64,000 bases of DNA, from the NCBI GenBank assembly GCA_963823555.1, contig CAWGMA010000002.1, forward strand, positions 1 to 64,000, read 5' to 3'. Within the stretch, counting starts at the first letter, position 1. Every line of letters begins with the position of its first letter. A program made the translations under genes and the position numbers. The stretch is from Candidatus Eiseniibacteriota bacterium. Lineage in GTDB: Bacteria > Eisenbacteria > RBG-16-71-46 > CAVPCR01. Shown one piece after another: positions 1 to 31,929 of the stretch. The notes below the pieces were generated by a model. That model saw only the letters and a program-made list of their open reading frames with translations, was not told the origin of the DNA and searched no databases.

Positions 1-300
1 CTGCTGATTTACTACAACATGAGCGGCCGCGGCGCCGATATTAACTGGTGGACCGTTAACCAGGAGGCCATACGTCGAGCCCTCCCAGAGTCCGCTCCGT
101 GCGCGAAGTGCGGGGCCCTACTCACGAGGCCTTCGCTGGCTTGGTCTGTCCACGCGTGTCCTCGCTGCCATCATCAGCAGGTCTTTGCTGAGGCCGAGTA
201 TAAACGTGCGCTAGCTCGAGAGATTCGGTCCGTCCTGAGGCGCGACCGTGTTAGACGCAAGCATTTCAGGTCGATGCTGCCAGAGATCGGTAATACCTGA
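1..300 (+). CDS. Cassette hypothetical protein with CxxC...CxxC zinc ribbon (frame open to window edge; ATG at 19)
   Basis: CAKC...CPRC motif; followed by attC 397-496. Confidence 0.55.
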   Translation: MLIYYNMSGRGADINWWTVNQEAIRRALPESAPCAKCGALLTRPSLAWSVHACPRCHHQQVFAEAEYKRALAREIRSVLRRDRVRRKHFRSMLPEIGNT

Positions 301-396
301 TAGGCGTATTGGACGACAGATGAGCCTACTGGTAAAAGGGATTTGGCGGCGCAGCCTGCAAGATACCAGGTGTGAGAATTTTTCCGCCTACCGGCT

Positions 397-496
397 GGCT
401 AACACGGGAATGCAGCCGTCGAGCGACGCACGTTGTTTTCGGGCGTCAGGCAAGAATAGTTCGCGCCGCTCGCGGCTGATTCCCAATCCGTTATGC
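397..496 (+). repeat. attC site
   Basis: GGCTAAC ACGGG AATGCAGC ... GCTGATT CCCAATCC GTTATGC. Confidence 0.9.
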
Positions 497-707
497 CGTC
501 AGAGTGCGCGCTCACGGCGAGAGCAGGAGGGTTGGCACCGGTGCCCCAGGGACACAGAAAGGAGGAGTTGCAGAACACCCATGGACTGCGGCGACGACAA
601 GGCTTTCAGGTCGCAGCGCAAGCACCCGATGTCTCGCCGTTGTCCAAGATCCCGAGAAGCAGTGATTCACGACGGACAACAAGGCAAGACGGAAAGGAGA
701 CGCTGTG

Positions 708-1529
708 ATGAAATGGTTCATGCCGCTGGCGCTAATCGTGATCCTGAGTCAACATTCGGCTTCAGCGCTGGCCCAGGGATTCGAGTTGATCTACTCATAT
801 CCTGCAGATGGCTCGGCTGTTTATCTTGATAGTTACATGATCGCACGAGAAGATCGTGTTGATTTCGATGGCGACGGGAATCCAGACATCTTCACACAGG
901 ATGGTGCGGTGATGGAGATTGTCACCGTCGACGACCCTTCGCACATCCCAGTTGTTCTGTGGTCGTACACTTTGGAAGGACCATTCGACGGTTTCGGATC
1001 GGAGGGCGCGGTCAACGTCACTCCTCATCCAGGGAAGGAGGTGATCGTGGATTGGTGGAGCTATTCTGGCGAAAGCAGCGTGCTCGTTCTGTCCAGCACT
1101 GGCGAAGTAATATGGAGCTTCCCCGATCGGTACATTCAAGACTTCGCTGATTTCGACGGCGACGGCCTTGATGAGTTGCTTCTCCAGGGGGCGGTAGCCG
1201 AGATATGGGATTACACGTCGACTGCTTCTTCCGTAAGTCAGCCCGACTCCAGTCGGCCCATGCGGCTGGCAGCTAACCCAAATCCATTCACCGCAGCCAC
1301 GGAGATTCGATTCGCGACCACCTTTCCCGGAACAGTCATCCTCGAGATCTTCGACTCTGCCGGACGCTTGATGTCCAGCAAGGACCTAGGCGCGCAGCAA
1401 CCCGGCGCGCACACGGTAGTTTGGAACGGCTTGGATGACCGAGGGCGATCAGTTGCGGCAGGGGTCTATCACTACAGATTGCGCTCCGGTGACTGGACAT
1501 CTTCGCGGAAAGTGGTTCTATTGCGATAA
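708..1529 (+). CDS. Secreted FG-GAP-like protein with C-terminal FlgD-Ig/T9SS-type domain (cassette)
   Basis: Signal peptide; DFDGDG motifs; C-terminal NPNPF...IFDSAGR...WNGLDDRG..VAAGVYHYRL...KVVLLR; RBS AAGGAGA upstream. Confidence 0.85.
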   Translation: MKWFMPLALIVILSQHSASALAQGFELIYSYPADGSAVYLDSYMIAREDRVDFDGDGNPDIFTQDGAVMEIVTVDDPSHIPVVLWSYTLEGPFDGFGSEGAVNVTPHPGKEVIVDWWSYSGESSVLVLSSTGEVIWSFPDRYIQDFADFDGDGLDELLLQGAVAEIWDYTSTASSVSQPDSSRPMRLAANPNPFTAATEIRFATTFPGTVILEIFDSAGRLMSSKDLGAQQPGAHTVVWNGLDDRGRSVAAGVYHYRLRSGDWTSSRKVVLLR

Positions 1530-1609
1530 GCGTGCCGAGTTGCGTTGGACTTCGCAGAAATGGAGTCCTCACGAGGTGCGGGTGTTGCGGAGCGGCAGTC
1601 TCAAGATGG

Positions 1610-1671
1610 GCATAACAAGGGCGTGCACCTGACAGCCGCTTCGCGTCTGCAGGTGACGCCCGGCGTTAGGT
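1610..1671 (+). repeat. attC site
   Basis: GCATAAC AAGGG CGTGCACC ... GGTGACG CCCGGC GTTAGGT. Confidence 0.93.
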
Positions 1672-1735
1672 GGCCACCAAACGAGCCGAACGGCGAACGC
1701 GTGGTGGGTCGTCAACCAGCAACGGAGGTCCGACA

Positions 1736-2560
1736 ATGAAGAACCTGTTACGTTCGGCCCTTAGCGGGCTAACCCTTCTCGGCTTGACTGTATCGACTGC
1801 CAGTGCGGGGTATGTGCTGGAATTCCAGACAGCTCCGGGGTTCGAAGTTCTGTTCATCCCAGACTTCCACGACTTCTTCGACTTTGATCGCTGGGATCTG
1901 GAAGGCGATGGAGTCGCGGAGATCGTTGTGGCGCATGCCGGCGACGACTTCCTAGTCATCTACGATGGTACTTCCAACGCGATCAAGTGGGCTTTTGACC
2001 GTTCCACCTTGGTGCCCCGCGATCAATTTCGCGGATTCTATGACGTTGACGGCGATGGTGTAAGGGAGGCGCTATTCGCTTCCAGTGATTCTCTCGGTCT
2101 TGTGCTCATAGATGTCGGCACGAGCACCGTCGAGTTCTCGCTCCCACCCGGGTATACGCTCAAAGCCGTGTACAACACGGACTCCGACAACTCCCAAGAA
2201 CTTCTTGTTGAGGTGAGCAATCGAGTTGAGCTGTGGGGTAATGGCCCGCCGGTCACAGCCGTGGAGCCGGCGTTGGATCAGAGGCGTCACTTCATGCTGG
2301 CAAACACACCGAACCCATTCGCCACATTGACGGAAATAGCATACACACTCCACGATGGCGGACGTGTTGACCTGAGCATCTACGACGTAGCCGGGCGGAT
2401 GGTGCGGGGGCTCGTTGATTCCCAGCAAGGGGCTGGTCGTCATGTAATCCAATGGGACGGACGAGACGCAGGAGGACGGCGCGTGGCATCAGGCACGTAT
2501 TTCTGTCGAATCAGGCAGTCGGGGAGGCAGCTCTCGGAGAAGGTGTTGGTGCTCCGATAG
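1736..2560 (+). CDS. Secreted FG-GAP-like protein with C-terminal FlgD-Ig/T9SS-type domain (cassette; same architecture as 708-1529)
   Basis: GGAGG RBS; signal peptide; DLEGDG/DVDGDG motifs; TPNPF...IYDVAGRMVR...WDGRDAGG..VASGTYF..KVLVLR. Confidence 0.87.
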   Translation: MKNLLRSALSGLTLLGLTVSTASAGYVLEFQTAPGFEVLFIPDFHDFFDFDRWDLEGDGVAEIVVAHAGDDFLVIYDGTSNAIKWAFDRSTLVPRDQFRGFYDVDGDGVREALFASSDSLGLVLIDVGTSTVEFSLPPGYTLKAVYNTDSDNSQELLVEVSNRVELWGNGPPVTAVEPALDQRRHFMLANTPNPFATLTEIAYTLHDGGRVDLSIYDVAGRMVRGLVDSQQGAGRHVIQWDGRDAGGRRVASGTYFCRIRQSGRQLSEKVLVLR

Positions 2561-2615
2561 CGGCCACGGACCTGCACCCCAAAAGTTGGACAGCCTGGAC
2601 CCCCGATTACTGTGA

Positions 2616-3509
2616 CTACTCCTCGCCTCGATGGCGCCGGACGTAGGCGATCGGCGTCAAGTTGCCGATCGAGGAGTGCCGACGCTTGGAATTGTAGTGA
2701 TGCATTCTCCTGCCTGCAAGCGTGACGAGTTGCTCGGGACTGGTCGCTTCTGCGAACAGCTCCCGGTTCTCGGTCTTGAATCGCCCGTTGAAGGACTCCA
2801 TCTCGGCGTTGTCGCGAGCGCCGCGCAGCGCGTACGACAGCCGCACCCGATCTTCGATCAGCAACCGCCGGACCCAGACGTCGCTCGTGTACACGGAGTC
2901 CCGGTCGTGGTGCACGATGATGCCCGCGATCGCGACACCCAGCCCACGCAGCGTACGACGAGCGCGGTTCCAGGCCTGCAGCGCGAGCGCTCGGTTGCGG
3001 CTGCGCCCCGTGGAGTGTCCCACAGCCAGCTTCGACCGGCTGTCCAGGATCGCCATGAGCCAGCCCTTGCCGCCGCCGTACACAAGCTCCGTGAAATCGG
3101 TCACGAGCACCTCGAACATCCCCGGCTCGTGATCGAGCGCCAGCAGCAGATTGGCGCGGTCGCCAGCGGCCGTGATCGCACCGCGAACCGCGCTCGTCCG
3201 CGGCGCCCGGGGCCGGCGGAGTGTCGCAAGCCCCCAGATTCGAGCCAGTTTCTGCACCACCTTGTGATTGACCGGGTACCCAACGCGCTCGCAGAGTTCG
3301 GCTGTCGACCGCCGGTACCCGTACTCCGGGAACGCCGAGGCGATCCGCAGCAGCGGTGCTTTCAGGGACGCGTGCTTTTCCTCGTACTGGAGCCGGCGTG
3401 CCTGGTAGTACCACGTCGATCGCGACAGATCCACGACCGACAGTGCGACACCCAGGTCCACGGACCGCTGGGCGTCGCGCACCAGTGCGGCCTTCTGCGA
3501 TGGACTCAT
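2616..3509 (-). CDS. IS3 transposase OrfB (rve/DDE integrase core)
   Basis: YGYRR, VTDFT, HHDRDSVY, DNAEMESFNGRFK, YNSKRRHSSIGNLTP motifs; ATGA overlap with orfA. Confidence 0.93.
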   Translation of the reverse strand: MSPSQKAALVRDAQRSVDLGVALSVVDLSRSTWYYQARRLQYEEKHASLKAPLLRIASAFPEYGYRRSTAELCERVGYPVNHKVVQKLARIWGLATLRRPRAPRTSAVRGAITAAGDRANLLLALDHEPGMFEVLVTDFTELVYGGGKGWLMAILDSRSKLAVGHSTGRSRNRALALQAWNRARRTLRGLGVAIAGIIVHHDRDSVYTSDVWVRRLLIEDRVRLSYALRGARDNAEMESFNGRFKTENRELFAEATSPEQLVTLAGRRMHHYNSKRRHSSIGNLTPIAYVRRHRGEE

Positions 3510-3790
3510 CCGGTCCGTCCCAAGAAGTTTTTTAAAAGAGCCAGCTCCACTTCCTTGCGCTCCAGAAGCTGCTCGAGCTCGGCGATCTGCTTCGCATGCT
3601 GCTCTGCCGGCGAACTGCTCTCGAACAGCTCGTGCCCGCGCCGTAGCACGGTCTCCTTCCACAGCGCCAGCGAATTGGGGTGCACCTGGTATGCGCGAGC
3701 GATCTCCGCGGCGGGCCGCTTGCCTTGGAGCAAATCGAGTACGGCCTTGAACTTCGCCTGGGACGTGAATTTCCGCCTGCCTCGTGGCAT
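3506..3790 (-). CDS. IS3 transposase OrfA (HTH)
   Basis: RRKFTSQAKFKAV..IARAYQVHPNSLALWK..coiled coil; TTTTAAAAAAC slippery site on - strand at 3527-3537. Confidence 0.92.
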   Translation of the reverse strand: MPRGRRKFTSQAKFKAVLDLLQGKRPAAEIARAYQVHPNSLALWKETVLRRGHELFESSSPAEQHAKQIAELEQLLERKEVELALLKNFLGRTG

Positions 3791-3893
3791 CGATCAACCT
3801 CCGGGTATGCCGGGTCACCCCTACGATGACCCGAACGCCTTCCGGGGGTCAATCCACACTCAGGCTATGTCCAAAAAACGGGGTTCATATCCC

Positions 3894-3953
3894 ACCTAAC
3901 CACGGCATGCAGCGGACGGCGCTGTGCGCCGCCGCTGATGCCGGGCGTTAGGC
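3894..3953 (+). repeat. attC site (60-bp dominant family)
   Basis: ACCTAAC CACGG CATGCAGC GGACGGCGCTGTGCGCCGCC GCTGATG CCGGGC GTTAGGC. Confidence 0.95.
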
Positions 3954-3970: not shown

Positions 3971-4990
3971 ATGGGATGGCTAAACAAGTTCTTTGGGAAA
4001 GAAGCCGCTCCTCAAGGGTCAAAAGCGGCAAACAATGTGTCTTTTGTCATACTCCAGGACGCTGTCGCGTTTATGACAGAAGCAACGAACTGGATTCGAG
4101 CCCAAAACACGCCTTCGGGTACTCTCATGTGGTTCGTTCTTCCTTCCGAGAAAAATCAGTGTTATCAGCCTTGCTTCGGCGTTCTTGCCGATCCCGCCCT
4201 TTTTAGCAAGCTCGACCGTGCAAAATCATTCGATATGGCGTTAGGTCCAACGGATTCGCCTTCAACATTCCAATGGGAAATTGTGGTCGCAGATCCTGAC
4301 AAACCCGGGAAATCGTTTAGTTTGGTCACGGTTCCACTCCGCATAGATGAGACTTCGCTGGCCAAACTGCAATTTCTATCAGAACAGGTGCGAGTGCATT
4401 ACCTTTTTTACGCTTCTAAGGAATCCTCGAATTTTGTATGGATGGAAATGCGCCCGGAATTCAACGAGCAGCTTCATGCCGTTTACTCTTCGCTAAAAAC
4501 CAAGCCACACGAGGCGGGAGATGTATCAGACAAAGGCTTGGCTAAGAATACACAAGTTGGCACACTACGACTTGGTGAAGCATCTATCGAATTGGCGGAT
4601 GGCACCGTCATCGCGCTAACCGACATTAAGGAAATCTCTGCTCCTGAAATTGTAATAGGCCAATCCAACCATCCTCTTACCAGCGCCATCAATTCAGAAC
4701 TGAAGGAAGGTCATGGCGTTGTATACCTCCTGTATATTACAAAGGATGGGGCCTCAACCAAGATCATTCCTACGGTGGATCGCTCAGCCGCTGTCGCGCT
4801 GGTCAAGCGAATAAAGGATGCCAAAGCCGCAGCCAATAGGCAGACGTCAGATAGAGTGATTGTGGGAGAGTGTACAAAGTGTCACCGTAAGCTTCGTGTT
4901 AAAGCACATGCCTTAAAGACAGAGATGGTTCTGACCTGTAAATGCGGGCAACAAAATAGAGTTCATACCACTGATGGACCAACCAAATAA
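3971..4990 (+). CDS. Hypothetical protein, AT-richer cassette, C-terminal zinc ribbon
   Basis: GAGG RBS; long ORF; CTKC...CKCG at C-terminus. Confidence 0.75.
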   Translation: MGWLNKFFGKEAAPQGSKAANNVSFVILQDAVAFMTEATNWIRAQNTPSGTLMWFVLPSEKNQCYQPCFGVLADPALFSKLDRAKSFDMALGPTDSPSTFQWEIVVADPDKPGKSFSLVTVPLRIDETSLAKLQFLSEQVRVHYLFYASKESSNFVWMEMRPEFNEQLHAVYSSLKTKPHEAGDVSDKGLAKNTQVGTLRLGEASIELADGTVIALTDIKEISAPEIVIGQSNHPLTSAINSELKEGHGVVYLLYITKDGASTKIIPTVDRSAAVALVKRIKDAKAAANRQTSDRVIVGECTKCHRKLRVKAHALKTEMVLTCKCGQQNRVHTTDGPTK

Positions 4991-5071
4991 GGAATATCGG
5001 GACAAAAAGTTGACCGTTAGCTGAAGCGCACATGCTCAACATCAAACAAATCATGAAAGTAGGATGAACAC

Positions 5072-6136
5072 ATGAAGCTGAAGGCAATGATCATCGTAAT
5101 CGCGTTCGCTGCGCTTTCACAAAGCGTCTGGGCACAGGGAACAGAGGCAGTGTTCTCCTACGACAAGGAGCGTATCACCGATGCCAAACCCTGGACCGAC
5201 AAGCAGTTCCAGAATGACCCCGAGGAGTTCCAGTTCGCCATCATCGGAGACCGCACCGGTGGCGCAAACGTGCAGGGAACCTTCGAGCGTGCCATGGCGC
5301 AACTCAATCTTCTTCAACCCGAGTTCGTAATCAACGTTGGCGACATCATCGAGGGGTATACGAAGGACAAGGCCGAGTTGCACGCCCAGTGGGAAGAGGC
5401 CGAAGGTATGACGTCGATGCTTGGGCTGCCTTTCTTCTACACTCGGGGCAACCATGATGTCAGTTATCCTGAGGCCCGTGAGGTTTGGAAGGAGCGGCAC
5501 GGCCCGGCTTACTATCACTTCGTCTACCGCAACACCCTGTTTATGGTTCTCGATAGCGAGGATGCCCCGCGCCTGGACCCACCTCCCGGCATGGAAGAGA
5601 ACATCAAGCTATACAACAGGCTGCAAACCGAGGACCCCAAGAAAGCGAAGCAGATGCTCGCGGAGTTCATGAAGGATGAGTCGGTTGTTGCCGGCCTTAC
5701 CAAGCCGGTCGAGTTTCCTGAAGAGCAGCTCGCGTGGATCAAGAAGACCCTGAAGAAAAACACCGACGTGCGGTGGACATTTGTCTTCACGCATGAGCCC
5801 TGCTGGGAAAACCCTTCCGAGAGCTTCAAGGCCGTTCAGGCCCTACTCAAGGAGAGGCGATTCACGTGGTTCGCAGGGCATTTGCATTACTACGATTATG
5901 ACGATATCGATGGACGCGAATACATCACCATGGGACCTGCGGGGGCTTCCTGGCATCACGATGGACCGGGCAATGTTGATCACCTCACTTGGGTGACAGT
6001 GACTGAAAATGGCCCAGAGATTGGAAACATCGCCCTGAAGGGCATCTTCGATCGAAAGGGTCTGGATCCTAGTCTATTTGGGGCCTATGACCGCAAAGGT
6101 GCGCAGACCAACGAGCCGAAGTCGAAGCAGGACTAG
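5072..6136 (+). CDS. Secreted calcineurin-like metallophosphoesterase (cassette)
   Basis: Signal peptide; IIGD, VGDII, GNHD, H, GHLH motifs. Confidence 0.9.
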   Translation: MKLKAMIIVIAFAALSQSVWAQGTEAVFSYDKERITDAKPWTDKQFQNDPEEFQFAIIGDRTGGANVQGTFERAMAQLNLLQPEFVINVGDIIEGYTKDKAELHAQWEEAEGMTSMLGLPFFYTRGNHDVSYPEAREVWKERHGPAYYHFVYRNTLFMVLDSEDAPRLDPPPGMEENIKLYNRLQTEDPKKAKQMLAEFMKDESVVAGLTKPVEFPEEQLAWIKKTLKKNTDVRWTFVFTHEPCWENPSESFKAVQALLKERRFTWFAGHLHYYDYDDIDGREYITMGPAGASWHHDGPGNVDHLTWVTVTENGPEIGNIALKGIFDRKGLDPSLFGAYDRKGAQTNEPKSKQD

Positions 6137-6144: not shown

Positions 6145-6204
6145 AGCTAACAACAGCATGCAGCGGGCGGCGCTACGCGCCGCCGCTGATGCTGGTCGTT
6201 AGCT
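6145..6204 (+). repeat. attC site (60-bp dominant family)
   Basis: AGCTAAC AACAG CATGCAGC ... GCTGATG CTGGTC GTTAGCT. Confidence 0.95.
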
Positions 6205-6216: not shown

Positions 6217-7071
6217 ATGAAATTGTTTGAGCTTCTTCGCGAGGTCAATCGCCGACCCGAACCATTCTCGGCATACACCGCCCCTGAACTGTGGACCGAT
6301 CCTCATACATCCGAGAGAATGCTCGCCTACCACCTAGATGAAACCGTAGATGCCGCCTCGCGAAAACCCGAGTTCATGGACCGTTCTGCGCAGTGGATTG
6401 TGTCGCACTTCGGTCTAACTCCAGGAGCCAGGGTAGCAGACTTCGGATGCGGCCCCGGTCTTTATGCCCAGCGCCTCGCACGCGCAGGTGCTGTAGTCAC
6501 TGGAATCGACTTCTCCCGCAATTCCCTTAGGTATGCTGGTCACAAGGCTTCTCAAGAAGGCCTCGCAATCAAGTACATCTATGCGGACTACCTCGAGTTT
6601 GAGACCGATCAGCGATTCGATCTCATCATGATGATCATGTGCGATTTCTGTGCGCTCAGCCCCAGTCAGCGCTCAGTTCTGTTGCGTAAGATCCGCTCCA
6701 TGCTCGCCACAGGCGGGTCGCTTCTATTCGATATCTACTCATCACGTATGTTCGATGAGCGTGAAGAGACAGCAACATACGCACGAAATCTAATGGATGG
6801 CTTTTGGTCGTCCGCCGAGTACTTCGGGTTCCTAAATAGATTCAAGTACGAGAATGATCGGCTTGTGCTGGACAAATACACGATCGTTGAGAAGGAACGC
6901 ACGCACATGATGTACAACTGGTTTCAGTGCTTCGCGCCGCAAGAACTTGAGAAGGAGCTGGCTGCCTGCGGGCTTGATGTTACGGAGTACTGGGGGGATG
7001 TCGCTGGGAGTAGGTACGATCCCAATGCGACGGAGTTGGCTGTCGTTGCGAAGGTGGGCAAAGTCCCGTAA
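6217..7071 (+). CDS. Class I SAM-dependent methyltransferase (cassette)
   Basis: VADFGCGPGLY, VTGIDFS motifs; AGGAG RBS. Confidence 0.9.
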   Translation: MKLFELLREVNRRPEPFSAYTAPELWTDPHTSERMLAYHLDETVDAASRKPEFMDRSAQWIVSHFGLTPGARVADFGCGPGLYAQRLARAGAVVTGIDFSRNSLRYAGHKASQEGLAIKYIYADYLEFETDQRFDLIMMIMCDFCALSPSQRSVLLRKIRSMLATGGSLLFDIYSSRMFDEREETATYARNLMDGFWSSAEYFGFLNRFKYENDRLVLDKYTIVEKERTHMMYNWFQCFAPQELEKELAACGLDVTEYWGDVAGSRYDPNATELAVVAKVGKVP

Positions 7072-7098: not shown

Positions 7099-7229
7099 AT
7101 CTAACTGCTGCATGAACCTGTCAGTCCGCCCTGTCACGACCCTGGCTCTTGAAGGTCGTCGGCCTGCATGCGACCCTCGCTTCGCCAGGGTCGCGCCAGG
7201 CCGCCCTGCAGGTTATGCAAGCGTTAGCC
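7099..7229 (+). repeat. attC site (long, 131 bp)
   Basis: ATCTAAC TGCTG CATGAACC ... GGTTATG CAAGC GTTAGCC. Confidence 0.9.
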
Positions 7230-7243: not shown

Positions 7244-7272
7244 TTGGCTTGGCAGCCGGCCAATGGGAGAAT
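7244..7272 (+). promoter_or_regulatory. Putative sigma70 promoter of TA cassette (possibly leaderless transcript)
   Basis: TTGGCT-17nt-GAGAAT with TGn extension; antitoxin ATG lies 6 nt after the -10. Confidence 0.5.
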
Positions 7273-7278
7273 AGGGGC

Positions 7279-7494
7279 ATGAGCGAACCAGCCATCGACA
7301 TCAACAAACTCTCGCCGGATGAACGGCTCAAGTTGCTTGAGAAGCTGTGGGACAGCCTAGAGGACCAGGACGTACCGCTGACGGCCCGGCAGCGGGAGGA
7401 GTTGGACCGACGCCTCGACGATCTTGATCGGGACGGACCTCGTGGAATCCCATGGGATGAGGTTCTTCAGCGCCTCGAGCACGAGACTCCGTGA
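7279..7494 (+). CDS. Putative addiction-module antitoxin (TIGR02574-like)
   Basis: LSPDERLKLLEKLWDSL...QREELDRRL...GIPWDEV pattern; GTGA overlap with toxin. Confidence 0.88.
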   Translation: MSEPAIDINKLSPDERLKLLEKLWDSLEDQDVPLTARQREELDRRLDDLDRDGPRGIPWDEVLQRLEHETP

Positions 7495-7781
7495 AGGTCG
7501 TCGTTCGGCCGGCGGCCGCCGCAGACATTGAGGAGGCGTTCCGCTGGTACCGCGAGCGGGGCCCTGCCCTTGGTGAGGCGTTCCTCGAAGCCCTGCGTTC
7601 CACAATGGAGCGGGTTCTCGAGAACCCCAGGGCGTTCCCCGTTCTCCATCGCGACACGCGCCGAATTCGGGTGAGGCGGTTCCCCTACGGACTCTTCTAT
7701 CGGCTCTACAGCGACACAATTGTCGTGGTGGCATGTATGCATGGTCGTCGCGATCCACGCAGATGGCGGTCGAGGGGCTGA
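7491..7781 (+). CDS. RelE/ParE family toxin
   Basis: VRPAAAADIEEAFRWY...FPYGLFY...VVVACMHGRRDP. Confidence 0.9.
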   Translation: MKVVVRPAAAADIEEAFRWYRERGPALGEAFLEALRSTMERVLENPRAFPVLHRDTRRIRVRRFPYGLFYRLYSDTIVVVACMHGRRDPRRWRSRG

Positions 7782-10582: not shown

Positions 10583-10605
10583 GCAATTCAATCGAGGGTG
10601 AGCGC

Positions 10606-23473: not shown

Positions 23474-23851
23474 GTGCGTGAGCACGGCTACGATCCGGTC
23501 ATGGAGCGGCGCCTCTTCTCGGTGGCGATCGGATCTCCGTCTGAACTCCCGAGCGAGCTCCGCCTGCCCGCAGGAAACTTCGCCTGCCTGCTTGCCTGGG
23601 ATGCTCGCGGCGTGTCGGCCGATGCGCTCTCCTCGCTCGTTGAAGCGCTTCTACGCGCCGGCGCGTTCTACTTCGTCTGCTGGGGTCCCGATTGCGAACG
23701 GATCCACGACATCATCGACCAGCTGGCGTCGGACCCGAACAACGCCCTCGGGCTACCCGAGAACAGTTGCATCATGACCACCTGGCACGATTCTGAGCCC
23801 TTGCGGCATGCGCTCTGGTTCTTCCTGGTCAACTCGTGCCCCGATGAGCAC
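23474..23851 (+). pseudogene. Hypothetical cassette ORF truncated by an IS3-like end
   Basis: YFVCWGPDCERIHDIID..IMTTWHD ORF runs into an IS-like IR at 23852. Confidence 0.65.
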
Positions 23852-24345: not shown

Positions 24346-24369
24346 ATCTTGTAAGAGAGGACTCTGAGA

Positions 24370-25254
24370 ATGGCAGAGATTACACGAAGGCGTTCCGGCG
24401 AACTTGTGCGCGGTGTCTTTCAGATCCTCGCGAACCAAGATGACGTCATTCCTGCCAAAGAGGTTCTCAGGCGACTTGAAGAACTCGTACCGCCAACGGA
24501 GTTCGAAGCAAGCACGTATCCGAATCGCCCAACCGTGCGACGGTACGAGAAAATAGTGCGGTTCTCCACCATCGGCACGGTGAAGGCTGGGTGGCTGATC
24601 AAGAACAAGGGCGCATGGTCGCTCAGTGATGAAGGGCGTGTGGCCTTTGACAAGTTCAGGGATCCGGAGGCCTTCTATCGCGAGGCTGGAAGACTTTACC
24701 GCGAGTGGAAGGCCGACCAGCCGACCGACGAGGCCGATGCGGAGGAAGAGGGATCCGGTCAGGCAACCACGACTCTGGAGGAGGCGGAAGAATCCGCCTG
24801 GTCGGAAATCGAGACATTTCTCGAAAAGATGAGCCCCTACGACTTCCAGGACCTGGTCGCAGGCCTCCTGCGCGGCATGGGCTACTTCGTGGAGTGGGTG
24901 TCACCCCCAGGTCCGGACAAGGGGATCGACGTTGTGGCCCACGTGGACCCGCTTGGTGTAAAGGGCCCTCGAATCAAGGTGCAAGTGAAGCGTAAGGCAG
25001 ACAAGGTGGCTGTGGACGGCGTGCGCGGTTTTATGGCGCTCCTCGGAGACTCGGACATAGGCCTGTTCGTCAACATGGGGGGGTTCACGCGCGACGCGGA
25101 GGAGGAAGCCCGACGGCAAGAAAAGAGACGCATTATGCTCGTGGACCTCAAACGGCTATTCGATCTTTGGACGGAGCACTACGACCGAATCCCAGAAACC
25201 CAGAGGCGTCTGCTCCCCTTGCGCCCAGTCTACTATCTCGCACCGGACGATTAG
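24370..25254 (+). CDS. mrr: Mrr-type (type IV) restriction endonuclease
   Basis: N-terminal Mrr_N-like wHTH; SPYDFQDLVAGLLRGMGY, GPDKGIDVVA, IKVQVKR, GGFTRDA. Confidence 0.92.
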   Translation: MAEITRRRSGELVRGVFQILANQDDVIPAKEVLRRLEELVPPTEFEASTYPNRPTVRRYEKIVRFSTIGTVKAGWLIKNKGAWSLSDEGRVAFDKFRDPEAFYREAGRLYREWKADQPTDEADAEEEGSGQATTTLEEAEESAWSEIETFLEKMSPYDFQDLVAGLLRGMGYFVEWVSPPGPDKGIDVVAHVDPLGVKGPRIKVQVKRKADKVAVDGVRGFMALLGDSDIGLFVNMGGFTRDAEEEARRQEKRRIMLVDLKRLFDLWTEHYDRIPETQRRLLPLRPVYYLAPDD

Positions 25255-25264: not shown

Positions 25265-25328
25265 GGCTAACAACAGCATGCAGCGGACGGCCCGCTGCGC
25301 GGCCCGCCGCTGAACCGGAGCGTTGGGC
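25265..25328 (+). repeat. attC site (64 bp)
   Basis: GGCTAAC AACAG CATGCAGC ... GCTGAAC CGGAGC GTTGGGC. Confidence 0.94.
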
Positions 25329-25378
25329 GGACACCACAACCCATCCGCCGTCACGAAGTGGGCCCGAAAGGCACGAAC

Positions 25379-27112
25379 ATGAATTCCAAACCGTTCAAGC
25401 ACTCTCCTGATCGAACCCCTATGAAGTTCTACGACACTCGGAACCTCAAGGGAGATCTCTCTGGAGGAGTGGTGGCCGGGATCATCGCGCTGCCATTGGC
25501 GCTGGCCTTTGGCGTTCAATCTGGTCTCGGCGCGGCAGCGGGACTCTATGGTGCCATCGCGGTAGGCGTCTTGGCTGCAGCGCTGGGCGGAACCGCCACA
25601 CAGGCTTCAGGACCAACGGGACCGATGACGGTGGTATCAGCCTCCATCGTGGCCATGGGCATCGCGAGGGCGGGCAGTATCGAGGCAGGAATGGGCATCA
25701 TCCTGCTGGCCTTCATGCTCGGCGGTTTGATTCAGATCGCCCTCGGCTTCCTGGGAGTGGGAAAGTACATCCGCTACTTTCCCTACCCGGTGATCTCGGG
25801 TTTCATGAGCGGCGTTGGACTGATCATCATCACGCTGCAAGTCTGGCCCTTCTTAGGGTCGGCGTCGCCCAAGACCACGCTGGGTGTCTTCACGCAAATC
25901 AGCACACCCCTCAGCCAGATCAATTGGGGAGCCGTTCTGCTGGGCGGGATCACGGTGGCCGTTTACTACCTCTTTCCACGACTGACAAAGGCGGTGCCGT
26001 CGGTCCTCGTTGCGCTGCTGGCGGGCACCTTGGTGTCGCGGGTTACCGGATTCGACGTGCCGATCATTGGCGCCATCCCCACCGGACTACCCGCCCTGCA
26101 GGTGGGCATCATCTTCGCCGCCGTCCCGGAGCATCTGCTGTTTGTCATTGGGTCTGGGATCACGCTGGCTTTGCTGGGTTCGATTGATTCGCTACTCACC
26201 TCGGTCATCGCCGACAACGTGACCAAGACCAAGCACGACAGTCGGCGCGAACTCATCGGGCAAGGCATCGGTAACACCGTCGCGGCAATCTTTGGCGGCA
26301 TCCCTGGAGCCGGGGCGACCAAGGGCACCGTGGTGAACATCACGGCCGGTGGCAAGACGCGCCTGTCCGGCGTGGTCCATGGCTTACTGCTGCTCGCGGT
26401 CCTGCTTGGGGCGGGCCAGTTCGCCGCCTACATCCCGTTGAGCGTGCTGGCGGGGCTGCTCATTCCCGTCGGCTTTGCCATCATCGACTACAAGGGTCTC
26501 AGGCACCTCCGCGATGTGCCGCGCGCGGATGCGGTAGTCTTGCTCGTGGTGCTCGGCATCACCGTGTTTGGCAATCTGATCCACGCAGTGGGCATCGGGA
26601 TCGTCTTGGCCAGCGTCCTGTTCATGAAGAAGGCCAGTGACCTTGCGGAAACGAAATCATCGGTCGAACCCTTGAAAGAGGACCCGTGGGAAGACGAGGC
26701 AGAGCTCTATGCCAGGTACAAGGATCGCATCTTCGTGAAGCATCTCTACGGTCCGCTGTTCTTCGGATTCACCGCCCGCTTCCAAGAACTGGCGTCGGCC
26801 CTGAGTCCAGACATCCGGGCACTGATCATTCGGATGGAGCGCGTCCCCTACATCGATCAATCGGGGCTCTACGCTTTGGAGGATGCCATTCTCCCTCTCC
26901 GGCAGCGTAACGTCATTGTGTTACTGACAGGCGTTCAATCGCAGCCGAACGACATGCTCCGCAAGATCAACATCGTGCCCGACTTGATCCCCGAGGAGTG
27001 CCTCTGCCGGGGAACGGATCCTTGCATGAAGTGGTTGGCGGGAGAGCTAGAGGCGAGGTCGCCCGCGGCTCAGTCCTCCGCCCAACCGCAGGAACCATCC
27101 ACGTCTCTCTAG
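25379..27112 (+). CDS. sulP: SulP/SLC26 anion (probably bicarbonate) transporter with STAS domain
   Basis: LKGDLSGGVVAGIIALPLALAFG, GPTGPM, RELIGQGIGN, GPLFFG, PYIDQSG; start may be 25421. Confidence 0.94.
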   Translation: MNSKPFKHSPDRTPMKFYDTRNLKGDLSGGVVAGIIALPLALAFGVQSGLGAAAGLYGAIAVGVLAAALGGTATQASGPTGPMTVVSASIVAMGIARAGSIEAGMGIILLAFMLGGLIQIALGFLGVGKYIRYFPYPVISGFMSGVGLIIITLQVWPFLGSASPKTTLGVFTQISTPLSQINWGAVLLGGITVAVYYLFPRLTKAVPSVLVALLAGTLVSRVTGFDVPIIGAIPTGLPALQVGIIFAAVPEHLLFVIGSGITLALLGSIDSLLTSVIADNVTKTKHDSRRELIGQGIGNTVAAIFGGIPGAGATKGTVVNITAGGKTRLSGVVHGLLLLAVLLGAGQFAAYIPLSVLAGLLIPVGFAIIDYKGLRHLRDVPRADAVVLLVVLGITVFGNLIHAVGIGIVLASVLFMKKASDLAETKSSVEPLKEDPWEDEAELYARYKDRIFVKHLYGPLFFGFTARFQELASALSPDIRALIIRMERVPYIDQSGLYALEDAILPLRQRNVIVLLTGVQSQPNDMLRKINIVPDLIPEECLCRGTDPCMKWLAGELEARSPAAQSSAQPQEPSTSL

Positions 27113-27133
27113 ATTCTTAACCCGGAGGAACCC

Positions 27134-27820
27134 ATGAAATCGAAAGACAGAATTCTGAACACACAAGTCGATGGTCTGGTGGAAGCGGTACTCACCCAGG
27201 AAGAACAGGCGGCGCTGACGCCTGACCGCGTGATTGAACTCCTGAAGGAAGGCAATGCCCGCTTCTCCAGTGGGGAGGTGACGTTGCGGAATCACAAAGA
27301 GCAAGTCCGCAAGGCGGCCACCGGTCAGTTTCCCAAAGCAATCGTGCTCTCCTGCGTCGATTCACGAGTCCCAGTAGAAGACGTTTTCGACCGCGGCATC
27401 GGCGACATGTTCGTGGCTCGTGTGGCTGGCAACTTCGTGAACTCCGACATTCTCGGCAGCATGGAATTCGCGTGCAAGGTCTCAGGCGCAAAGCTAGTTC
27501 TGGTGATGGGCCATGAGCACTGCGGAGCAGTGAAGGGCGCGATCGATCAGGTCGAGTTGGGCAACATCACCGACATGCTGACGAAGATTCAGCCTGCCGT
27601 GGCCAGCTTCAACGACTACGGCGCAGAGCGGAGTAGCGCGAACCCCGATTTTGTTCATCTGGTGGCGGAGAAAAACGTACAACTCAACCTGGATCGAATC
27701 CGGAAAGAAAGCCCCATCCTTCGTGAGATGGAAGCCACCGGCGAGATCAAGATCGTGGGCGCGATGTACAACATGGACTCCGGCGAGGTGGTGTTCATGG
27801 ACGCGTCGCTTCACCACTAA
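27134..27820 (+). CDS. Beta-class carbonic anhydrase
   Basis: LKEGNARF, SCVDSRV, RVAGN, GHEHCGAV. Confidence 0.95.
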   Translation: MKSKDRILNTQVDGLVEAVLTQEEQAALTPDRVIELLKEGNARFSSGEVTLRNHKEQVRKAATGQFPKAIVLSCVDSRVPVEDVFDRGIGDMFVARVAGNFVNSDILGSMEFACKVSGAKLVLVMGHEHCGAVKGAIDQVELGNITDMLTKIQPAVASFNDYGAERSSANPDFVHLVAEKNVQLNLDRIRKESPILREMEATGEIKIVGAMYNMDSGEVVFMDASLHH

Positions 27821-27866: not shown

Positions 27867-27934
27867 GCCCAACAACCGGTTGCAGCGGACGGTCCGCTGC
27901 GCGGCCCGCCGCTGAACCGGAGTGAGTGCTAGCC
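27867..27934 (+). repeat. attC site with damaged right end, abutting IS256 fragment
   Basis: GCCCAAC AACCG GTTGCAGC ... GCTGAAC CGGAGTGAGT GCTAGCC. Confidence 0.8.
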
Positions 27935-28551: not shown

Positions 28552-28617
28552 GCATAACGAGGCGTTGGAGCGGCTCGGGTCTGCTGCGCCCCCCCCCGCT
28601 CAACGCCGGCGTTAGGG
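28552..28617 (+). repeat. attC site
   Basis: GCATAAC GAGGC GTTGGAGC ... GCTCAAC GCCGGC GTTAGGG. Confidence 0.88.
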
Positions 28618-28791: not shown

Positions 28792-29694
28792 ATGACGCAG
28801 TATCGTTGGTTCGTGCTTCACTTGCTTGCCTTCTCCACCATCGTGAGACCAGTCTCTCTGAACGGCGCGCAGGGCGCTCCGGCGTACGCGGGAGACCCCA
28901 TGATTCTGCCGTTCACTACCGGGGCCCGTGGCCATGTCTTCGTCGATGTGATTGTGAACGGCGACCGGCGGGTGCCGTTTGTTCTCGATACGGGTGCCGG
29001 CCGAACCATGCTCAATCAGGCCCGCCTTGACAGCCTCGGGATCGCTCAGCGAGCGAGCACCGACACCGTGCAGGGAGCGCATGGGAAGTTCGCGATGGGT
29101 CTCGCCGACGTGGAGTCCCTCGCGCTCGGTGGGGTCGCGCTGGGGGCGCTCGAGCTTGGGACGATGGACCTGACTGGTGTCGAGTCCGGCGGCTCGCCGG
29201 TCTTCGGCGTCATCGGCTACGACGTGCTGTCTAGATTCGACGTCCTGCTGGATTTCGAGCAGCAGACGATCGCTCTCCATCCGCGCGCCGGGAGCCTGGA
29301 CGCATGCGCCGTGTGCGCGGGCGCAATGACGGTTTCCTTCGATCTGGCCGAGGATACAATCATCCGATTCGAGGTCACTATCAACGGCCAGCCGATCGCT
29401 GCGCTTCTCGACACGGGATCCGCTCGCAGCGGCATGAACCACCTCGCCGCCAAGGCCATCGGCGTCCAGCTGCCTCCGACGCCACCCGGGGGTCACGGTC
29501 CGGCCCTGCAGGTCGACGCGGTCAAAATGGGCGGGGAGGTCCTTGCCCGCAAGCTGATCGTCGGCGTCGTGGATCTACCCGTGTTCACCGCCGTGGGGGT
29601 CGCCGACGGGCCTGCGATGCTGGTGGGAACCCGGGCGCTCGTCGGGCGGCGGGTCGGGATCTCCTACGGGGTGGAGCGACTATCCATCAGGTAA
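28792..29694 (+). CDS. Secreted double-domain retropepsin-like aspartyl protease (cassette)
   Basis: FVLDTGA and ALLDTGS catalytic motifs; GVIGYDVL. Confidence 0.9.
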   Translation: MTQYRWFVLHLLAFSTIVRPVSLNGAQGAPAYAGDPMILPFTTGARGHVFVDVIVNGDRRVPFVLDTGAGRTMLNQARLDSLGIAQRASTDTVQGAHGKFAMGLADVESLALGGVALGALELGTMDLTGVESGGSPVFGVIGYDVLSRFDVLLDFEQQTIALHPRAGSLDACAVCAGAMTVSFDLAEDTIIRFEVTINGQPIAALLDTGSARSGMNHLAAKAIGVQLPPTPPGGHGPALQVDAVKMGGEVLARKLIVGVVDLPVFTAVGVADGPAMLVGTRALVGRRVGISYGVERLSIR

Positions 29695-29783
29695 CTCATG
29701 CGCGGGGTGGCGGCGCGAGGGGACAAACGAGAGAAGCTCGGCCTCCCGCTTGCCCTAGCGCCTGAACCAGCCGTTAGCAAGCC

Positions 29784-30188
29784 ATGAGCTATTTTGCCGA
29801 CCTTACGCCGTACACCTACACGATGACCATCGAGGGAACTGTACTCAACGTGGGATGGCTCGACTCCCGGCATCCCTTCCCTCGCGGTGACACCACCGCG
29901 GAGTTCCGCCACGCCCTGCATCGCCTCTGCCAACGCCCGGTGTTGCTGACTCGCGGAGCTCACCACTGCCAGTTCTGCCCGCAGGAAGACATGCGTGTGT
30001 GGCCTCCCACTCATCCGGAGCGCGTCGGCAATGGTGAGATTCGCGTCAAGGGCGCCGACGGAATCTGGTATGCGGCCCCGACGATGGTCAACCACTACGT
30101 TGTGGAGCATCAGTATCTGCCGCCGAACGCGTTCGTGCAGGCCGTCCTGTTAGTGGCAGCAGTTGCGGGCCCGGGTGATGCTCGCTAA
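29784..30188 (+). CDS. Hypothetical protein (cassette)
   Basis: YFADLTPY..NVGWLD..RGAHHCQFC..GNGEIRV..YAAPTMVNHYV; stop lies in the R'' box. Confidence 0.82.
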   Translation: MSYFADLTPYTYTMTIEGTVLNVGWLDSRHPFPRGDTTAEFRHALHRLCQRPVLLTRGAHHCQFCPQEDMRVWPPTHPERVGNGEIRVKGADGIWYAAPTMVNHYVVEHQYLPPNAFVQAVLLVAAVAGPGDAR

Positions 30189-30281
30189 CCCGCGGCTGCA
30201 GCCGACGAGCGGCGGCGACCCCGCCTGCCCGCCTGGTACCCTCTTGGCTGCCGCCGGCCGCTGGGCGGCAGGACGTTAGAC
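30183..30281 (+). repeat. attC site
   Basis: CGCTAAC CCGCG GCTGCAGC ... GCTGGGC GGCAGGAC GTTAGAC. Confidence 0.85.
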
Positions 30282-30351
30282 CGATTTCGCAGGACGCTCC
30301 GCGAGTCGACTTGCGGGTTTGCGAAGCTCATTTCACAAGAGTAATTTTGCC

Positions 30352-31398
30352 GTGACCGCTTTGGACACATCGGTGCTCTCGACACGGCTGGATGCGGTGG
30401 TCGCCGAGACGGATTTCTGGGGAGCGATCCAAGTGACCGTCGCGGGGAGCATCCTGTACGAACGCGCCGCTGGATACTCGGATCGCGCTCATGAGATACC
30501 GAACACCCGAGACACGAGCTTCGCAGTCGCGAGTGGGACGAAAGCCTTCACTGCCTTGGCGGCGATGTCGCTCGTGCAGGAGGGAATGCTTGGGCTCGAC
30601 GATCAGGTCCGCGGTTCGTTCGGTCCAGCGGGGGGCCTCGTAGCGCCCGGTGTGACGATCCGGCACCTGCTCGCACACACGTCAGGACTCGGAGACTACC
30701 TGGACGAAGAGCAGATCACGGACAACGACGAGTACGTTTTGGACGTTCCTGTCCACCATCTGACGAGTCCGTTGGAGTTCATGCCTCTCCTACGTGGCCG
30801 GCCGGCGAAGTCGCCGCCGGGTGCGAGGTTCGAGTATTGCAACTCCGGCTACGTGCTGCTCGCGTTGGTCATCGATCACGTCGCCGGCTGCAGTTACTAC
30901 GACGCCGTGCAGCAGAGGGTCTTCGGGCCCGCAGGGATGGAGCACACGGCGTTCCCCCGACTGGACGAGCTGCCGGGGTCCGCAGCGATCGGATACTTGC
31001 CGAGTCGCGGTTGGCGAACGAACCATCTGCACCTGCCCGTTCGGGGTGGAGGTGATGGCGGTGCCTACTCCACGCTGGACGACATCAGTCGATTCTGGAG
31101 CGAACTCTACTCTGGAACGATCGTGACTGCCGAAGCAGTCCGTGAAATGACGCACCCTCACCACGCGCCATCGGAGGCATCCCGTGGCTACGGGCTCGGT
31201 TTCTGGCTTGCGCGCGACGGTCGCACAGTTCAGCTCGAGGGAGCCGATGCCGGAATCTCGTTTCGCTCTGGGTTCGCGCCGGCAACCCGTGTCTCGTACA
31301 CGGTCGTCTCAAACACAACCTCCGGTGCCTGGCCCGTCGTGAAGGAGCTGGAATCTCTGCTCGGAGCGGTCACGCCGGAGAGAGACGTTTCGAGATGA
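30352..31398 (+). CDS. Serine hydrolase, beta-lactamase/transpeptidase-like family (last recognisable cassette)
   Basis: SGTK (SxxK), LLAHTSG, YCN (YxN); followed by lone R'' GTCTAAC 31403-31409. Confidence 0.9.
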   Translation: MTALDTSVLSTRLDAVVAETDFWGAIQVTVAGSILYERAAGYSDRAHEIPNTRDTSFAVASGTKAFTALAAMSLVQEGMLGLDDQVRGSFGPAGGLVAPGVTIRHLLAHTSGLGDYLDEEQITDNDEYVLDVPVHHLTSPLEFMPLLRGRPAKSPPGARFEYCNSGYVLLALVIDHVAGCSYYDAVQQRVFGPAGMEHTAFPRLDELPGSAAIGYLPSRGWRTNHLHLPVRGGGDGGAYSTLDDISRFWSELYSGTIVTAEAVREMTHPHHAPSEASRGYGLGFWLARDGRTVQLEGADAGISFRSGFAPATRVSYTVVSNTTSGAWPVVKELESLLGAVTPERDVSR

Positions 31399-31929
31399 CG
31401 CGGTCTAACTGCCGGGGTTCTTCTCCTCGAGGCTTCTGGCTCTACTGCTGGCCGGCCTGATCCTCGGGTTTCTGCAGCCGACAGCGGCATGGCGTTGGGC
31501 TGTGCTGCTCGCGCTGGGTTGCCTGCCATGGCCGTCGTTGGCAACCTGCTTCGCGTGCGTACACCCGAGTCGATCCGCTTGGATCCGCGCATTGCTTTGG
31601 TAGCCTTGGGGTTCGCGGCGGTCGGTTGCTACGGCGGCCTTGTGGTTCGCCGGACTTTCGCGCGGATCACAGGCAGGGGTTGGCAAAACCACCCATGGAC
31701 TTTGACACCTACCGCCGCAGGTTCTTCATCCGTCCGCAGCCCCAGCCGCGCCTTGCTTTCGCGGGTCTCCACAACGCGACCCGTTATCTTGCCAACTCCG
31801 CGACCCGTTTCGAACGCACATGTTGATCGTCCGCCCCCTCGACTCAGTGGCGGCTGTGTACCGCCGCTCCCGCAAGGAGATGGTCGCTGCGCGCTCGTCG
31901 AAGCCGGTCAGCGCGCACGCTACGTCTAC

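What the first reader, a model, noticed from the sequence alone, without database searches (positions are those of the whole stretch)
1..31409. More than 31 kb of integron cassette array with a resident attC family in a probable candidate-phylum host
Seen: about 19 intact or near-intact attC sites and about 25 cassettes, all + strand, with 13 exact R'/R'' matches. Five attC sites (3894, 6145, 9349, 10523, 14694) share a near-identical 60-bp core, and three (22098, 25265, 27867) share a 64-bp variant. Known: homogeneous attC families mark sedentary chromosomal integrons such as the Vibrio VCR arrays. Inference: this is the distal end of a large sedentary integron in an Eisenbacteria/Latescibacterota-like lineage, where, as far as I know, such arrays are little described.
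Basis: partly seen in the sequence, partly recalled or inferred. Interest (0 to 1): 0.8.

Follow-up and report, generated by a model that had tools for sequence, protein, structure and literature searches.

The report
Integron array with own antiterminator gene
The window holds a real 31-kb row of integron gene cassettes in an uncultured, likely Eisenbacteria-type bacterium; its start most likely lies on a neighbouring contig, where an extra NusG-type gene sits ahead of the integrase and likely helps RNA polymerase read far into the array, a part I did not find described for integrons.

Summary
The array is real: 19 full attC sites plus one cut by an IS, about 25 cassettes, all on the + strand. 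It is most likely the distal part of a chromosomal integron whose platform lies on contig C3 (GC skew, dnaA and synteny; no sequence overlap). That platform reads promoter, NusG paralog, conserved ~60-nt element, intact intI, attI, cassettes, all on one strand. The 'resident attC family' is not supported: mean identity is 56%, and the 60-bp type occurs across the phylum and in other phyla. The new point is the NusG paralog. Its 8 close genomic copies (4 of 206 genomes, probably one origin) lie ahead of intI (4), an integrase-less attI array (1), decayed cassettes (1) or a non-IntI recombinase (2; one heads 22 hairpin sites). Distant paralogs often head polysaccharide genes instead. Likely role: antitermination through the array (untested, about 50%). 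The scan noted integrase-less attI copies and non-IntI arrays before on other DNA; I found no note or paper on the NusG link.

The parts
1..31409 (+). Cassette array, about 25-26 cassettes, GC 0.612 against 0.692 at 42-64 kb. Likely the distal part of the integron whose platform is off-window on C3 (minus strand): promoter-like site at 17111, NusG paralog 17003-16293, element about 16220-16170, intI 16100-15024, attI crossover 14795, 6 attC at 14284-8567
397..496 (+). attC, 100 bp
705..1529 (+). cassette: protein with C-terminal FlgD Ig-like domain (likely secreted)
1610..1671 (+). attC, 62 bp
1670..2560 (+). cassette: second FlgD Ig-like protein
2568..3892 (-). insertion sequence (rve and HTH_21 domains; 99.8% copy at C2:712600-713924), inserted just before the attC
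3894..3953 (+). attC, 60-bp type
3971..6136 (+). two cassettes: unknown protein, then metallophosphoesterase; only the R' junction (5016) is left between them
6145..6204 (+). attC, 60-bp type
6217..7071 (+). cassette: SAM methyltransferase
7099..7229 (+). attC, 131 bp
7249..7781 (+). cassette: addiction-module antitoxin plus ParE toxin; 98% copy is cassette 2 behind attI on C3
7783..7881 (+). attC, 99 bp
7918..9264 (+). cassette: DUF2254 membrane protein
9349..9408 (+). attC, 60-bp type
9536..10446 (+). cassette: PDC-S02 (Mrr-like) defence candidate, in pieces
10523..10582 (+). attC, 60-bp type
10567..11085 (+). cassette: unknown protein; 99% copy is the first cassette at attI on C3
11087..11136 (+). 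attC, 50 bp; internally shortened against the 101-bp C3 copy
11168..12035 (+). two cassettes: SEC-C motif protein and unknown protein; R' junction only at 11657
12030..12128 (+). attC, 99 bp
12146..14665 (+). two cassettes: frameshifted methyltransferase, then amidohydrolase; R' junction only at 12923
14694..14753 (+). attC, 60-bp type
15205..15299 (+). attC, 95 bp, closing an unknown-protein cassette (14796-15182)
15343..16089 (+). cassette: CAAX protease family; R' junction only at 16136
16263..17646 (-). ISL3 element
17843..17944 (+). degenerate attC (GCT core, fold z -0.7)
18139..22085 (+). cassette: Hen1 plus Pnkp RNA-repair pair
22098..22161 (+). attC, 64-bp type, damaged R''
22195..22797 (+). 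cassette: HD-domain protein
22792..22888 (+). attC, 97 bp
23398..23456 (+). attC, 59 bp, closing an unknown-protein cassette (22916-23359)
23474..25254 (+). DUF7684 gene cut by IS remnants (23851-24355), then an Mrr / PDC-S02 nuclease
25265..25328 (+). attC, 64-bp type
25358..27820 (+). cassette: SulP transporter plus carbonic anhydrase
27867..27922 (+). attC, 64-bp type; right core replaced by an IS fragment (27916-28471, 99.6% copy at C3:645799)
28552..28617 (+). attC, 66 bp
28792..30188 (+). two cassettes: aspartyl protease and DUF7919; R' junction only at 29773
30183..30281 (+). attC, 99 bp; last full site
30319..31409 (+). last recognisable cassette: serine hydrolase of the beta-lactamase family, followed by a lone R'' at 31403
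31489..40000 (+). co-oriented accessory genes without attC (GNAT, S41 peptidase, cupin, DUF488, esterases, aldo-keto reductase, carbonic anhydrase), GC 0.643; possibly decayed cassettes
   Evidence: the decay reading is inference

Best explanation
The window is a real integron cassette array, most likely the distal part of a chromosomal integron whose platform on contig C3 reads promoter-like site, NusG paralog, conserved element, intI, attI, cassettes on one strand, and the NusG paralog likely acts as the array's own antiterminator. Shown in sequence: the attC sites, an intact IntI, attI geometry, gene order, and cassettes shared between C3 and the window. Inferred (about 85%): the join of reversed C3 to C2. 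Inferred from integron biology: IntI excises cassettes at folded attC bottom strands and inserts them at attI. Inferred and untested (about 50%): transcription starts ahead of the NusG paralog; the protein is loaded onto RNA polymerase at the element after its gene; the polymerase then resists termination (Rho is present) across intI, attI and poorly translated cassettes, so cassettes far from the promoter would still be expressed. The same IntI likely also serves a second, integrase-less attI beside tRNA-Trp at the end of C1.
For: Join: dnaA lies at C3:94920 at the skew switch. The order reversed C3, C2, C1, reversed C4 gives arms of 2.33 and 2.30 Mb. In G001 the homologues of C3:57.6-29.4 kb run on, after 3.7 kb, into those of C2:42 kb. 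IntI: the only match over the TIGR02249 cut-off, 462.9 bits, aligned to VchIntIA over its whole length including the insertion. NusG paralog: Pfam NusG, NusG/RfaH fold. All 8 close genomic copies lie at cassette platforms: ahead of intI in G000, G001, G010, G070, ahead of an integrase-less attI with cassettes, ahead of cassette-like genes with decayed attC, or convergent with a non-IntI recombinase. Metagenome locus L162 also has it ahead of intI. Control: of the 80 metagenome loci only L162 has an IntI-like hit and none an attC call; 14 of 32 scanned downstream genes are polysaccharide or nucleotide-sugar families. A TTG-17/18-TAnnnT site precedes the gene in 9 of 11 loci (shuffles: mean 0.33, max 2) and is absent from all 8 regions between the gene or intI and attI. 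The downstream element is in 9 of 9 close loci with enough sequence. NusG paralogs such as LoaP, TaA and UpxY lie next to long operons they activate (PMC7819879); LoaP needs an RNA hairpin (PMC12691694); cassettes lower the mRNA of those behind them (PMC11511950).
Against: There is no sequence overlap at the join: the C3 array ends in a truncated hsdM and a probably foreign 7-kb tail. No RNA data were obtained. The NusG add-on is rare: 4 of 206 genomes, against 62 with IntI over the cut-off. Its IntI partners fall in one weakly supported group, so it is probably one origin, and G034 in that group lacks it yet has an array. The non-IntI array has its own promoter-like site, so read-through from the NusG promoter is not needed there. 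The C1 satellite attI has neither the gene nor the element. Close relative L164 (49%) shows no clear integron link, and L161 is too short to tell. The element's pairing shows no significant covariation (65 of 500 shuffles). The array has no excess of intrinsic terminators. PMC11511950 leans to mRNA stability rather than termination as the cause of polarity. The promoter pattern was set by eye on 5 of the 11 loci, and the element pattern on the loci it then matched.
Confidence: 0.55

Rival explanations
1. The array and platform are as described, but the NusG paralog is a passenger or controls only the recombinase gene (helping intI transcription, or damping the convergent non-IntI recombinase by antisense read-through). 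Cassettes are expressed as in ordinary integrons.
For: Most integrons of the phylum lack it (4 of 62). There is probably one origin. 6 of 8 close copies adjoin a recombinase gene. The non-IntI array has its own promoter-like site.
Against: Two copies in G001 have kept gene, promoter-like site and element with no recombinase beside them, one directly ahead of an attI. What most copies share is a co-oriented array downstream, whichever way the recombinase points (the G001 non-IntI copy ends at a contig break, so its array is not seen).
Confidence: 0.3
2. The window's array is headed by the integrase-less attI beside tRNA-Trp at the end of C1 (a CALIN with its own attI), and IntI from C3 serves it in trans.
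For: C1 ends in an outward-pointing array: 205 bp at 83% identity to the post-intI platform, attI crossover at C1:2299769, two attC sites, then a truncated hsdM.
Against: Skew is negative at the end of C1 and positive on C2, which would need an origin at the junction and an arm of 0.8 Mb; dnaA is on C3. G001 synteny links C3 to C2.
Confidence: 0.1
3. One reading: a Vibrio-like sedentary integron that makes its own cassettes, marked by a resident attC family.
For: This genome has 8 copies of the 60-bp core, the most among 206 genomes. The array is chromosomal, has more than 10 attC sites and has the leading-strand orientation.
Against: Mean identity is 0.56. The core is widespread. G001 mostly uses a different 96-101-bp type and has its platform at another locus.
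Confidence: 0.05

Closest known systems
Chromosomal integrons with intI transcribed towards attI (Treponema type; Wu et al. 2013, PMC3607928; 'inverted integrase' group in Cury et al. 2016, PMC4889954)
   Same: IntI with its insertion, attI downstream of intI, co-oriented cassettes bounded by attC
   Different: A NusG paralog and a conserved element sit between the promoter-like site and intI; the genome also has a second attI without intI
Sedentary chromosomal integrons (Vibrio VCR arrays; Loot et al. 2017, PMC5371416; threshold of more than 10 attC in PMC9024848)
   Same: Chromosomal, at least 25 attC sites in all, bottom strands on the leading-strand template (inferred), toxin-antitoxin and defence-type cassettes
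   Different: Heterogeneous attC sites; locus not conserved within the genus; co-oriented intI
Specialised NusG paralogs LoaP, UpxY, TaA, RfaH, ActX (PMC7819879, PMC12691694)
   Same: NGN plus KOW fold, separate from housekeeping NusG, encoded at the head of a long co-oriented gene run, with a conserved cis element nearby
   Different: The apparent target is a shuffled cassette array, not a fixed operon. The element follows the gene rather than lying in the leader ahead of it. Activity is untested
CALIN (Cury et al. 2016, PMC4889954)
   Same: On its contig alone the window looks like a large CALIN; the C1 satellite is an integrase-less array
   Different: The window's array most likely has its intI across an assembly gap; the satellite keeps an attI copy

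Membership tests
Integron | IntI tyrosine recombinase with catalytic residues and the integron-specific insertion | tested here: met
   TIGR02249 462.9 bits against a cut-off of 265; full-length alignment to 2a3v; R176, K201, H307, R310, H333, Y342 motifs read from the sequence. The gene is on C3, not in the window
Integron | attC sites with R and L boxes, an extrahelical base and a folding bottom strand | tested here: met
   tested with my own models, not IntegronFinder's
Integron | attI site at the head of the array | tested here: met
   GTT crossover at C3:14795 with an inverted 7-mer five bases upstream; the first cassette joins exactly there, as shown by its copy at window 10573; similar sites in four relatives. 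Sequence evidence only
Integron | Pc promoter driving the cassettes | tested here: inconclusive
   No sigma-70-like match between intI and attI; the only match is ahead of the NusG paralog
Integron | IntI-mediated excision and insertion | not testable with these tools
   Two cassettes shared at 98-99% between the attI-proximal and distal parts suggest recent shuffling
Sedentary chromosomal integron | Chromosomal, more than 10 attC sites | tested here: met
   C2 is 726 kb, C3 carries dnaA; 19-20 attC in the window plus 6 on C3
Sedentary chromosomal integron | Homogeneous resident attC family | tested here: not met
   Mean identity 0.56, 7% of pairs at 80% or more; core widespread
Sedentary chromosomal integron | Same locus kept in related species | tested here: not met
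   G001's platform lies between homologues of C3:187.7 kb and 185.1 kb, not at this site; one relative tested
Sedentary chromosomal integron | attC bottom strands on the leading-strand template | tested here: met
   The array reads away from dnaA with positive skew on its top strand; 25 of 30 SCIs are so (PMC5371416)
Co-oriented (inverted-integrase) integron | intI transcribed towards attI and the cassettes | tested here: met
   the same in all 9 of 19 relatives in which attC was seen near intI and in G070
Specialised NusG paralog antiterminator | NGN and KOW domains, distinct from housekeeping NusG | tested here: met
   Pfam NusG; model pLDDT 78 matching NusG/RfaH; a separate distant NusG at C3:539936 beside a tRNA cluster, taken as the housekeeping gene
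Specialised NusG paralog antiterminator | Cis recruitment element (DNA or RNA) | tested here: inconclusive
   Conserved motif in 9 of 9 close loci; no Rfam match; covariation not significant
Specialised NusG paralog antiterminator | Raises read-through of its target operon | not testable with these tools
   No RNA data for this organism
CALIN | attC cluster with no neighbouring intI | tested here: not met
   True only of contig C2 taken alone; skew and synteny put intI about 8 kb plus an unknown gap upstream

The most novel reading that the evidence does not exclude
A lineage of integrons has recruited a dedicated processive antiterminator. A promoter, NusG paralog and loading element form a portable module that lets RNA polymerase run through a whole cassette array, so distal cassettes are expressed without being shuffled to attI. 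The same module has been bolted onto two different recombinase systems (IntI, and an insertion-less recombinase with a DUF1802 tail) and onto integrase-less attI platforms.
Probability: 0.4. Interest if true: 0.88.

Novelty: new variant of a known kind. Interest (0 to 1): 0.66.

Why it matters
In the standard model only cassettes near Pc are expressed, and the first cassettes lower the mRNA of those behind them (PMC11511950). A platform-encoded antiterminator would change what a large array is: an expressed library rather than a silent store. It would also give a direct handle on whether polarity in arrays comes from termination or from decay. If the antiterminator reading fails, what remains is a near-complete picture of integrons in a phylum where 62 of 206 genomes carry IntI and for which my one search found no integron paper.

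Tried and rejected
My first reading, that the end of C1 joins the window, was dropped after skew, dnaA and synteny. No contig-end overlap was found. Public runs held at most 0.16 of the words of the C1 end; four were laid and covered only tRNA-Trp, attC and hsdM pieces from other organisms, with almost no depth on the satellite attI, so they say nothing about the join, expression or habitat. Rfam gave nothing for the window or the element. The element model R2 found only the sites it was built from and missed the G001 non-IntI copy that the regex finds. Ribozyme and riboswitch readings of the element came from memory and found no Rfam support. The consensus scan found no Pc near either attI and no terminator excess. 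The first metagenome scan with the single NusG protein found nothing. The viral scan and 48 genomes of other lineages gave only distant paralogs. About 46 proteins at 50% identity or more exist, but no context could be had. The NusG tree was the quick version and rooted on a very long branch; I use it only as a hint. The fold of the non-IntI recombinase's tail was unusable (pLDDT 42), so no fold search was run on it. The 60-bp core had no exact match in viral contigs. PMC8618304 gave no relevant passage. Two C3 or C1 cassette ORFs were dropped from the family scans because my coordinates held stops, so they are unannotated.
Full report
Observation. The window is G000:C2:1-64000 of a 4.62-Mb, four-contig genome. 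It holds 19 full attC sites at 397-30281, one site at 27867 whose right core was replaced by an IS fragment, and a lone R'' at 31403, all on +. My weight-matrix scan gave 1 hit in 20 shuffles of the first 32 kb. A matrix trained on 27 sites from other genomes found 17 sites on C2, 6 on C3, 1 on C1 and none on C4 (those sites were first picked with my matrix). The covariance model R1, built from 17 window sites, gave 25 matches genome-wide in the same three places (only 150 candidates were scored). R'' complements the preceding junction exactly in 12 of 20 cases and within one mismatch in 18 of 20, against 1.4 by chance. Cassettes include ParE toxin-antitoxin, two Mrr/PDC-S02 nucleases (one broken), Hen1-Pnkp, SulP with carbonic anhydrase, FlgD-Ig proteins, hydrolases and unknowns.

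The 'resident family' does not. Eighteen sites average 0.56 identity and 7% of pairs reach 80%. The 60-bp core is in 32 of 206 phylum genomes, with 8 copies here and 1 in the same-genus genome G001, and in 5 of 50 IntI-bearing genomes of other lineages. G001 mostly uses a 96-101-bp type.

Where the array starts. One IntI passes the TIGR02249 cut-off, at C3:16100-15024 on the minus strand. It aligns to VchIntIA throughout, insertion included. About 230 bp after its stop comes attI (crossover at C3:14795), then six attC sites on the same strand as intI, then a truncated hsdM near C3:7.1 kb. Beyond that lies a 7-kb tail with a frameshifted second aroC, while the intact aroC is on C4, so the tail is likely foreign. 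The first two cassettes recur in the window at 99% and 98%. No overlap joins C3 to C2. Three lines point to that join. dnaA lies at C3:94920, where GC skew switches. The order reversed C3, C2, C1, reversed C4 gives replication arms of 2.33 and 2.30 Mb. In G001 the homologues of C3:57.6-29.4 kb continue, after 3.7 kb, into those of window 42 kb. The array therefore reads away from the origin, with attC bottom strands on the leading-strand template, as in 25 of 30 sedentary integrons (PMC5371416, passages). G001's own platform sits at another chromosomal site. Co-oriented intI is known from Treponema (PMC3607928, passages; PMC4889954, passages). It is the rule in this phylum where I could see it: all 9 of 19 relatives with attC near intI, and G070. 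IntI passes the cut-off in 62 of 206 phylum genomes. The host is probably Eisenbacteria-like: the closest named IntI loci are MAGs titled Ca. Eisenbacteria (L056 81%, L069 73%), and L056 also has the NusG paralog ahead of intI.

A second attI. At C1:2299577-2299780, just upstream of and divergent from tRNA-Trp, lies an 83% copy of the 205 bp that follow intI, with no integrase gene, followed by two attC cassettes and an hsdM cut off at the contig end. G001 also has an integrase-less attI (local alignment score 227, shuffle maximum 155) and shares cassette sequence between its arrays. One IntI likely serves several docking sites. Earlier notes of this scan report such sites in other genomes; my search found no paper on them.

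The NusG paralog. Directly upstream of intI, on the same strand, is a NusG-family gene (C3:17003-16293; Pfam NusG). Its model (pLDDT 78) matches NusG and RfaH structures, and its best sequence match in the PDB is 8f5g, titled 'NusG-RNA complex' (that this is a LoaP is my recollection). A profile finds it in 5 of 206 phylum genomes. The G003 copy is distant and precedes what I read as a Wzc-like polysaccharide gene (not Pfam-tested). The other 8 copies, in G000, G001, G010 and G070, all lie at cassette platforms. Four are ahead of intI, attI and an array (G010's intI has an internal stop). One is ahead of the integrase-less attI. One is ahead of cassette-like genes with decayed attC. Two are convergent with a recombinase that lacks the IntI insertion. 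Among 80 metagenome loci three are close: L162 has intI downstream, L161 ends too soon, and L164 shows no clear link. No other locus has an IntI-like or attC hit, and 14 of 32 downstream genes scanned are polysaccharide or nucleotide-sugar families (the 32 include L164).

Signals around it. A TTG-17/18-TAnnnT site precedes the gene in 9 of 11 loci, against a shuffle mean of 0.33. I saw it by eye in 5 loci first; it then held in 4 of the other 6. None of 8 regions between the gene or intI and attI has one. In phylum loci without the paralog, such a site lies upstream of intI in 6 of 15 and downstream in 2 of 15, so the upstream promoter may generally double as Pc in this layout. Some 60-150 nt after the stop comes a conserved element: a short stem, GGTA, a GC-rich hairpin, GAA-GGG and a GNA-loop hairpin. 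A pattern made from these loci matches 9 of 9 close loci with enough sequence. It matches 1 of 67 loci under 48% identity, and that one is G010's intI-linked copy. Its pairing is 92% kept but covariation is not significant (65 of 500 shuffles), and Rfam has no match. The GGTAG core recalls RfaH's ops site and the GGTA/GAA loop recalls a bulged-G motif; both likenesses are from memory.

Mechanism. [quoted passage not shown] LoaP needs a small RNA hairpin (PMC12691694, passages). In integrons, cassettes lower downstream mRNA according to how well they are translated; the authors name termination or instability and lean to the latter (PMC11511950, passages). The genome has Rho, and the array has no excess of intrinsic terminators. 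I therefore propose that the paralog is loaded at the element and protects the transcript from Rho-type termination through intI, attI and the cassettes. This is inference from gene context alone. Against it: the add-on is rare. Its four IntI partners fall in one weakly supported group that also holds G034, which lacks the gene, so it is probably a single origin. The non-IntI array has a promoter-like site of its own. The C1 satellite lacks the module.

The second system, in passing. At C3:409.2-410.9 kb a tyrosine recombinase without the IntI insertion, with a DUF1802-like tail (both copies match, best E 7e-7; Atlas lead 0.88), heads 22 related ~160-bp sites over C3:411.5-432.9 kb. They begin and end like attC and fold as single strands (z -2.9 and -2.8), but their right-hand spacer is 9 bases by my reading, and my attC models missed them. 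G001 has the same gene pair at a contig end (67%). The scan noted insertion-less arrays on other DNA before.

What is known. Searches for integron with NusG and antitermination, with NusG paralog, RfaH and ops and with Eisenbacteria returned no papers. The scan's notes had nothing for the NusG link by words or by sequence. The library lacks most subscription papers, and I read passages only, no supplements. Verdict: a real integron array and a new member of the co-oriented type, with a platform part not found described. New variant; interest 0.66.

Noticed in passing
G000 C3:409235-432854 (L148:11235-20000, L241): Second integron-like system: a tyrosine recombinase without the IntI insertion, with a DUF1802-like tail, heads 22 homogeneous ~160-bp hairpin sites; five of the first eight units are copies of one ~330-bp unit without a long ORF, others look like secreted proteins. 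A NusG paralog lies on its other side; G001 has the same pair at a contig end.
   Followed up: partly
G000 C1:2299577-2304102 (L028:15475-20000): Integrase-less attI copy (83%) upstream of tRNA-Trp with two attC cassettes, a short ISL3-end element and an hsdM cut at the contig end; by inference on the lagging-strand template. G001's contig C6 ends one base past the same tRNA-Trp.
   Followed up: partly
L136:9680-10400 (G001 C1, about 241.7-242.4 kb): A G001 cassette array starts in a tandem repeat of about 8 copies of ~60 bp whose last copy ends in a GTT junction: possibly insertion at a secondary site.
   Followed up: no
L030:12500-17100 and L034:8500-10700: G001 and G034 arrays hold many near-identical short (about 280-320 bp) cassettes, repeated in tandem and between arrays.
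   Followed up: no
window 18139-22085: The Hen1-Pnkp RNA-repair pair is carried as one 4.2-kb cassette; both of its bounding attC sites are damaged.
   Followed up: no
window 25358-27820 and 39472-39993: SulP plus carbonic anhydrase in one cassette, and a second carbonic anhydrase in the attC-less tail.
   Followed up: no
window 11087-11136 against C3:14184-14284: The same cassette has a 50-bp attC in the window and a 101-bp attC at attI: the variable stem was deleted in the distal copy.
   Followed up: no
G000 C3:1-7000; C4:1-9414 against C2:713925-723326: Assembly oddities: a probably foreign, frameshift-rich tail with a second aroC on C3, and a 9.4-kb segment shared at 98.6% by C4 and C2. 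Both the C3 and C1 arrays break off inside hsdM genes.
   Followed up: partly
L039, L040, L041 (G003): G003 has three intI/attI platform copies (75-96% alike) with partial intI genes, and further arrays without intI.
   Followed up: no
G000 C1:203953-204996: A second, more distant Rho-like gene (477 bits, under the cut-off) besides rho on C3.
   Followed up: no
window 45126-47531 (-): An 801-aa ORF with what reads like a C-terminal HNH motif and 18-21-bp internal repeats; not scanned.
   Followed up: no
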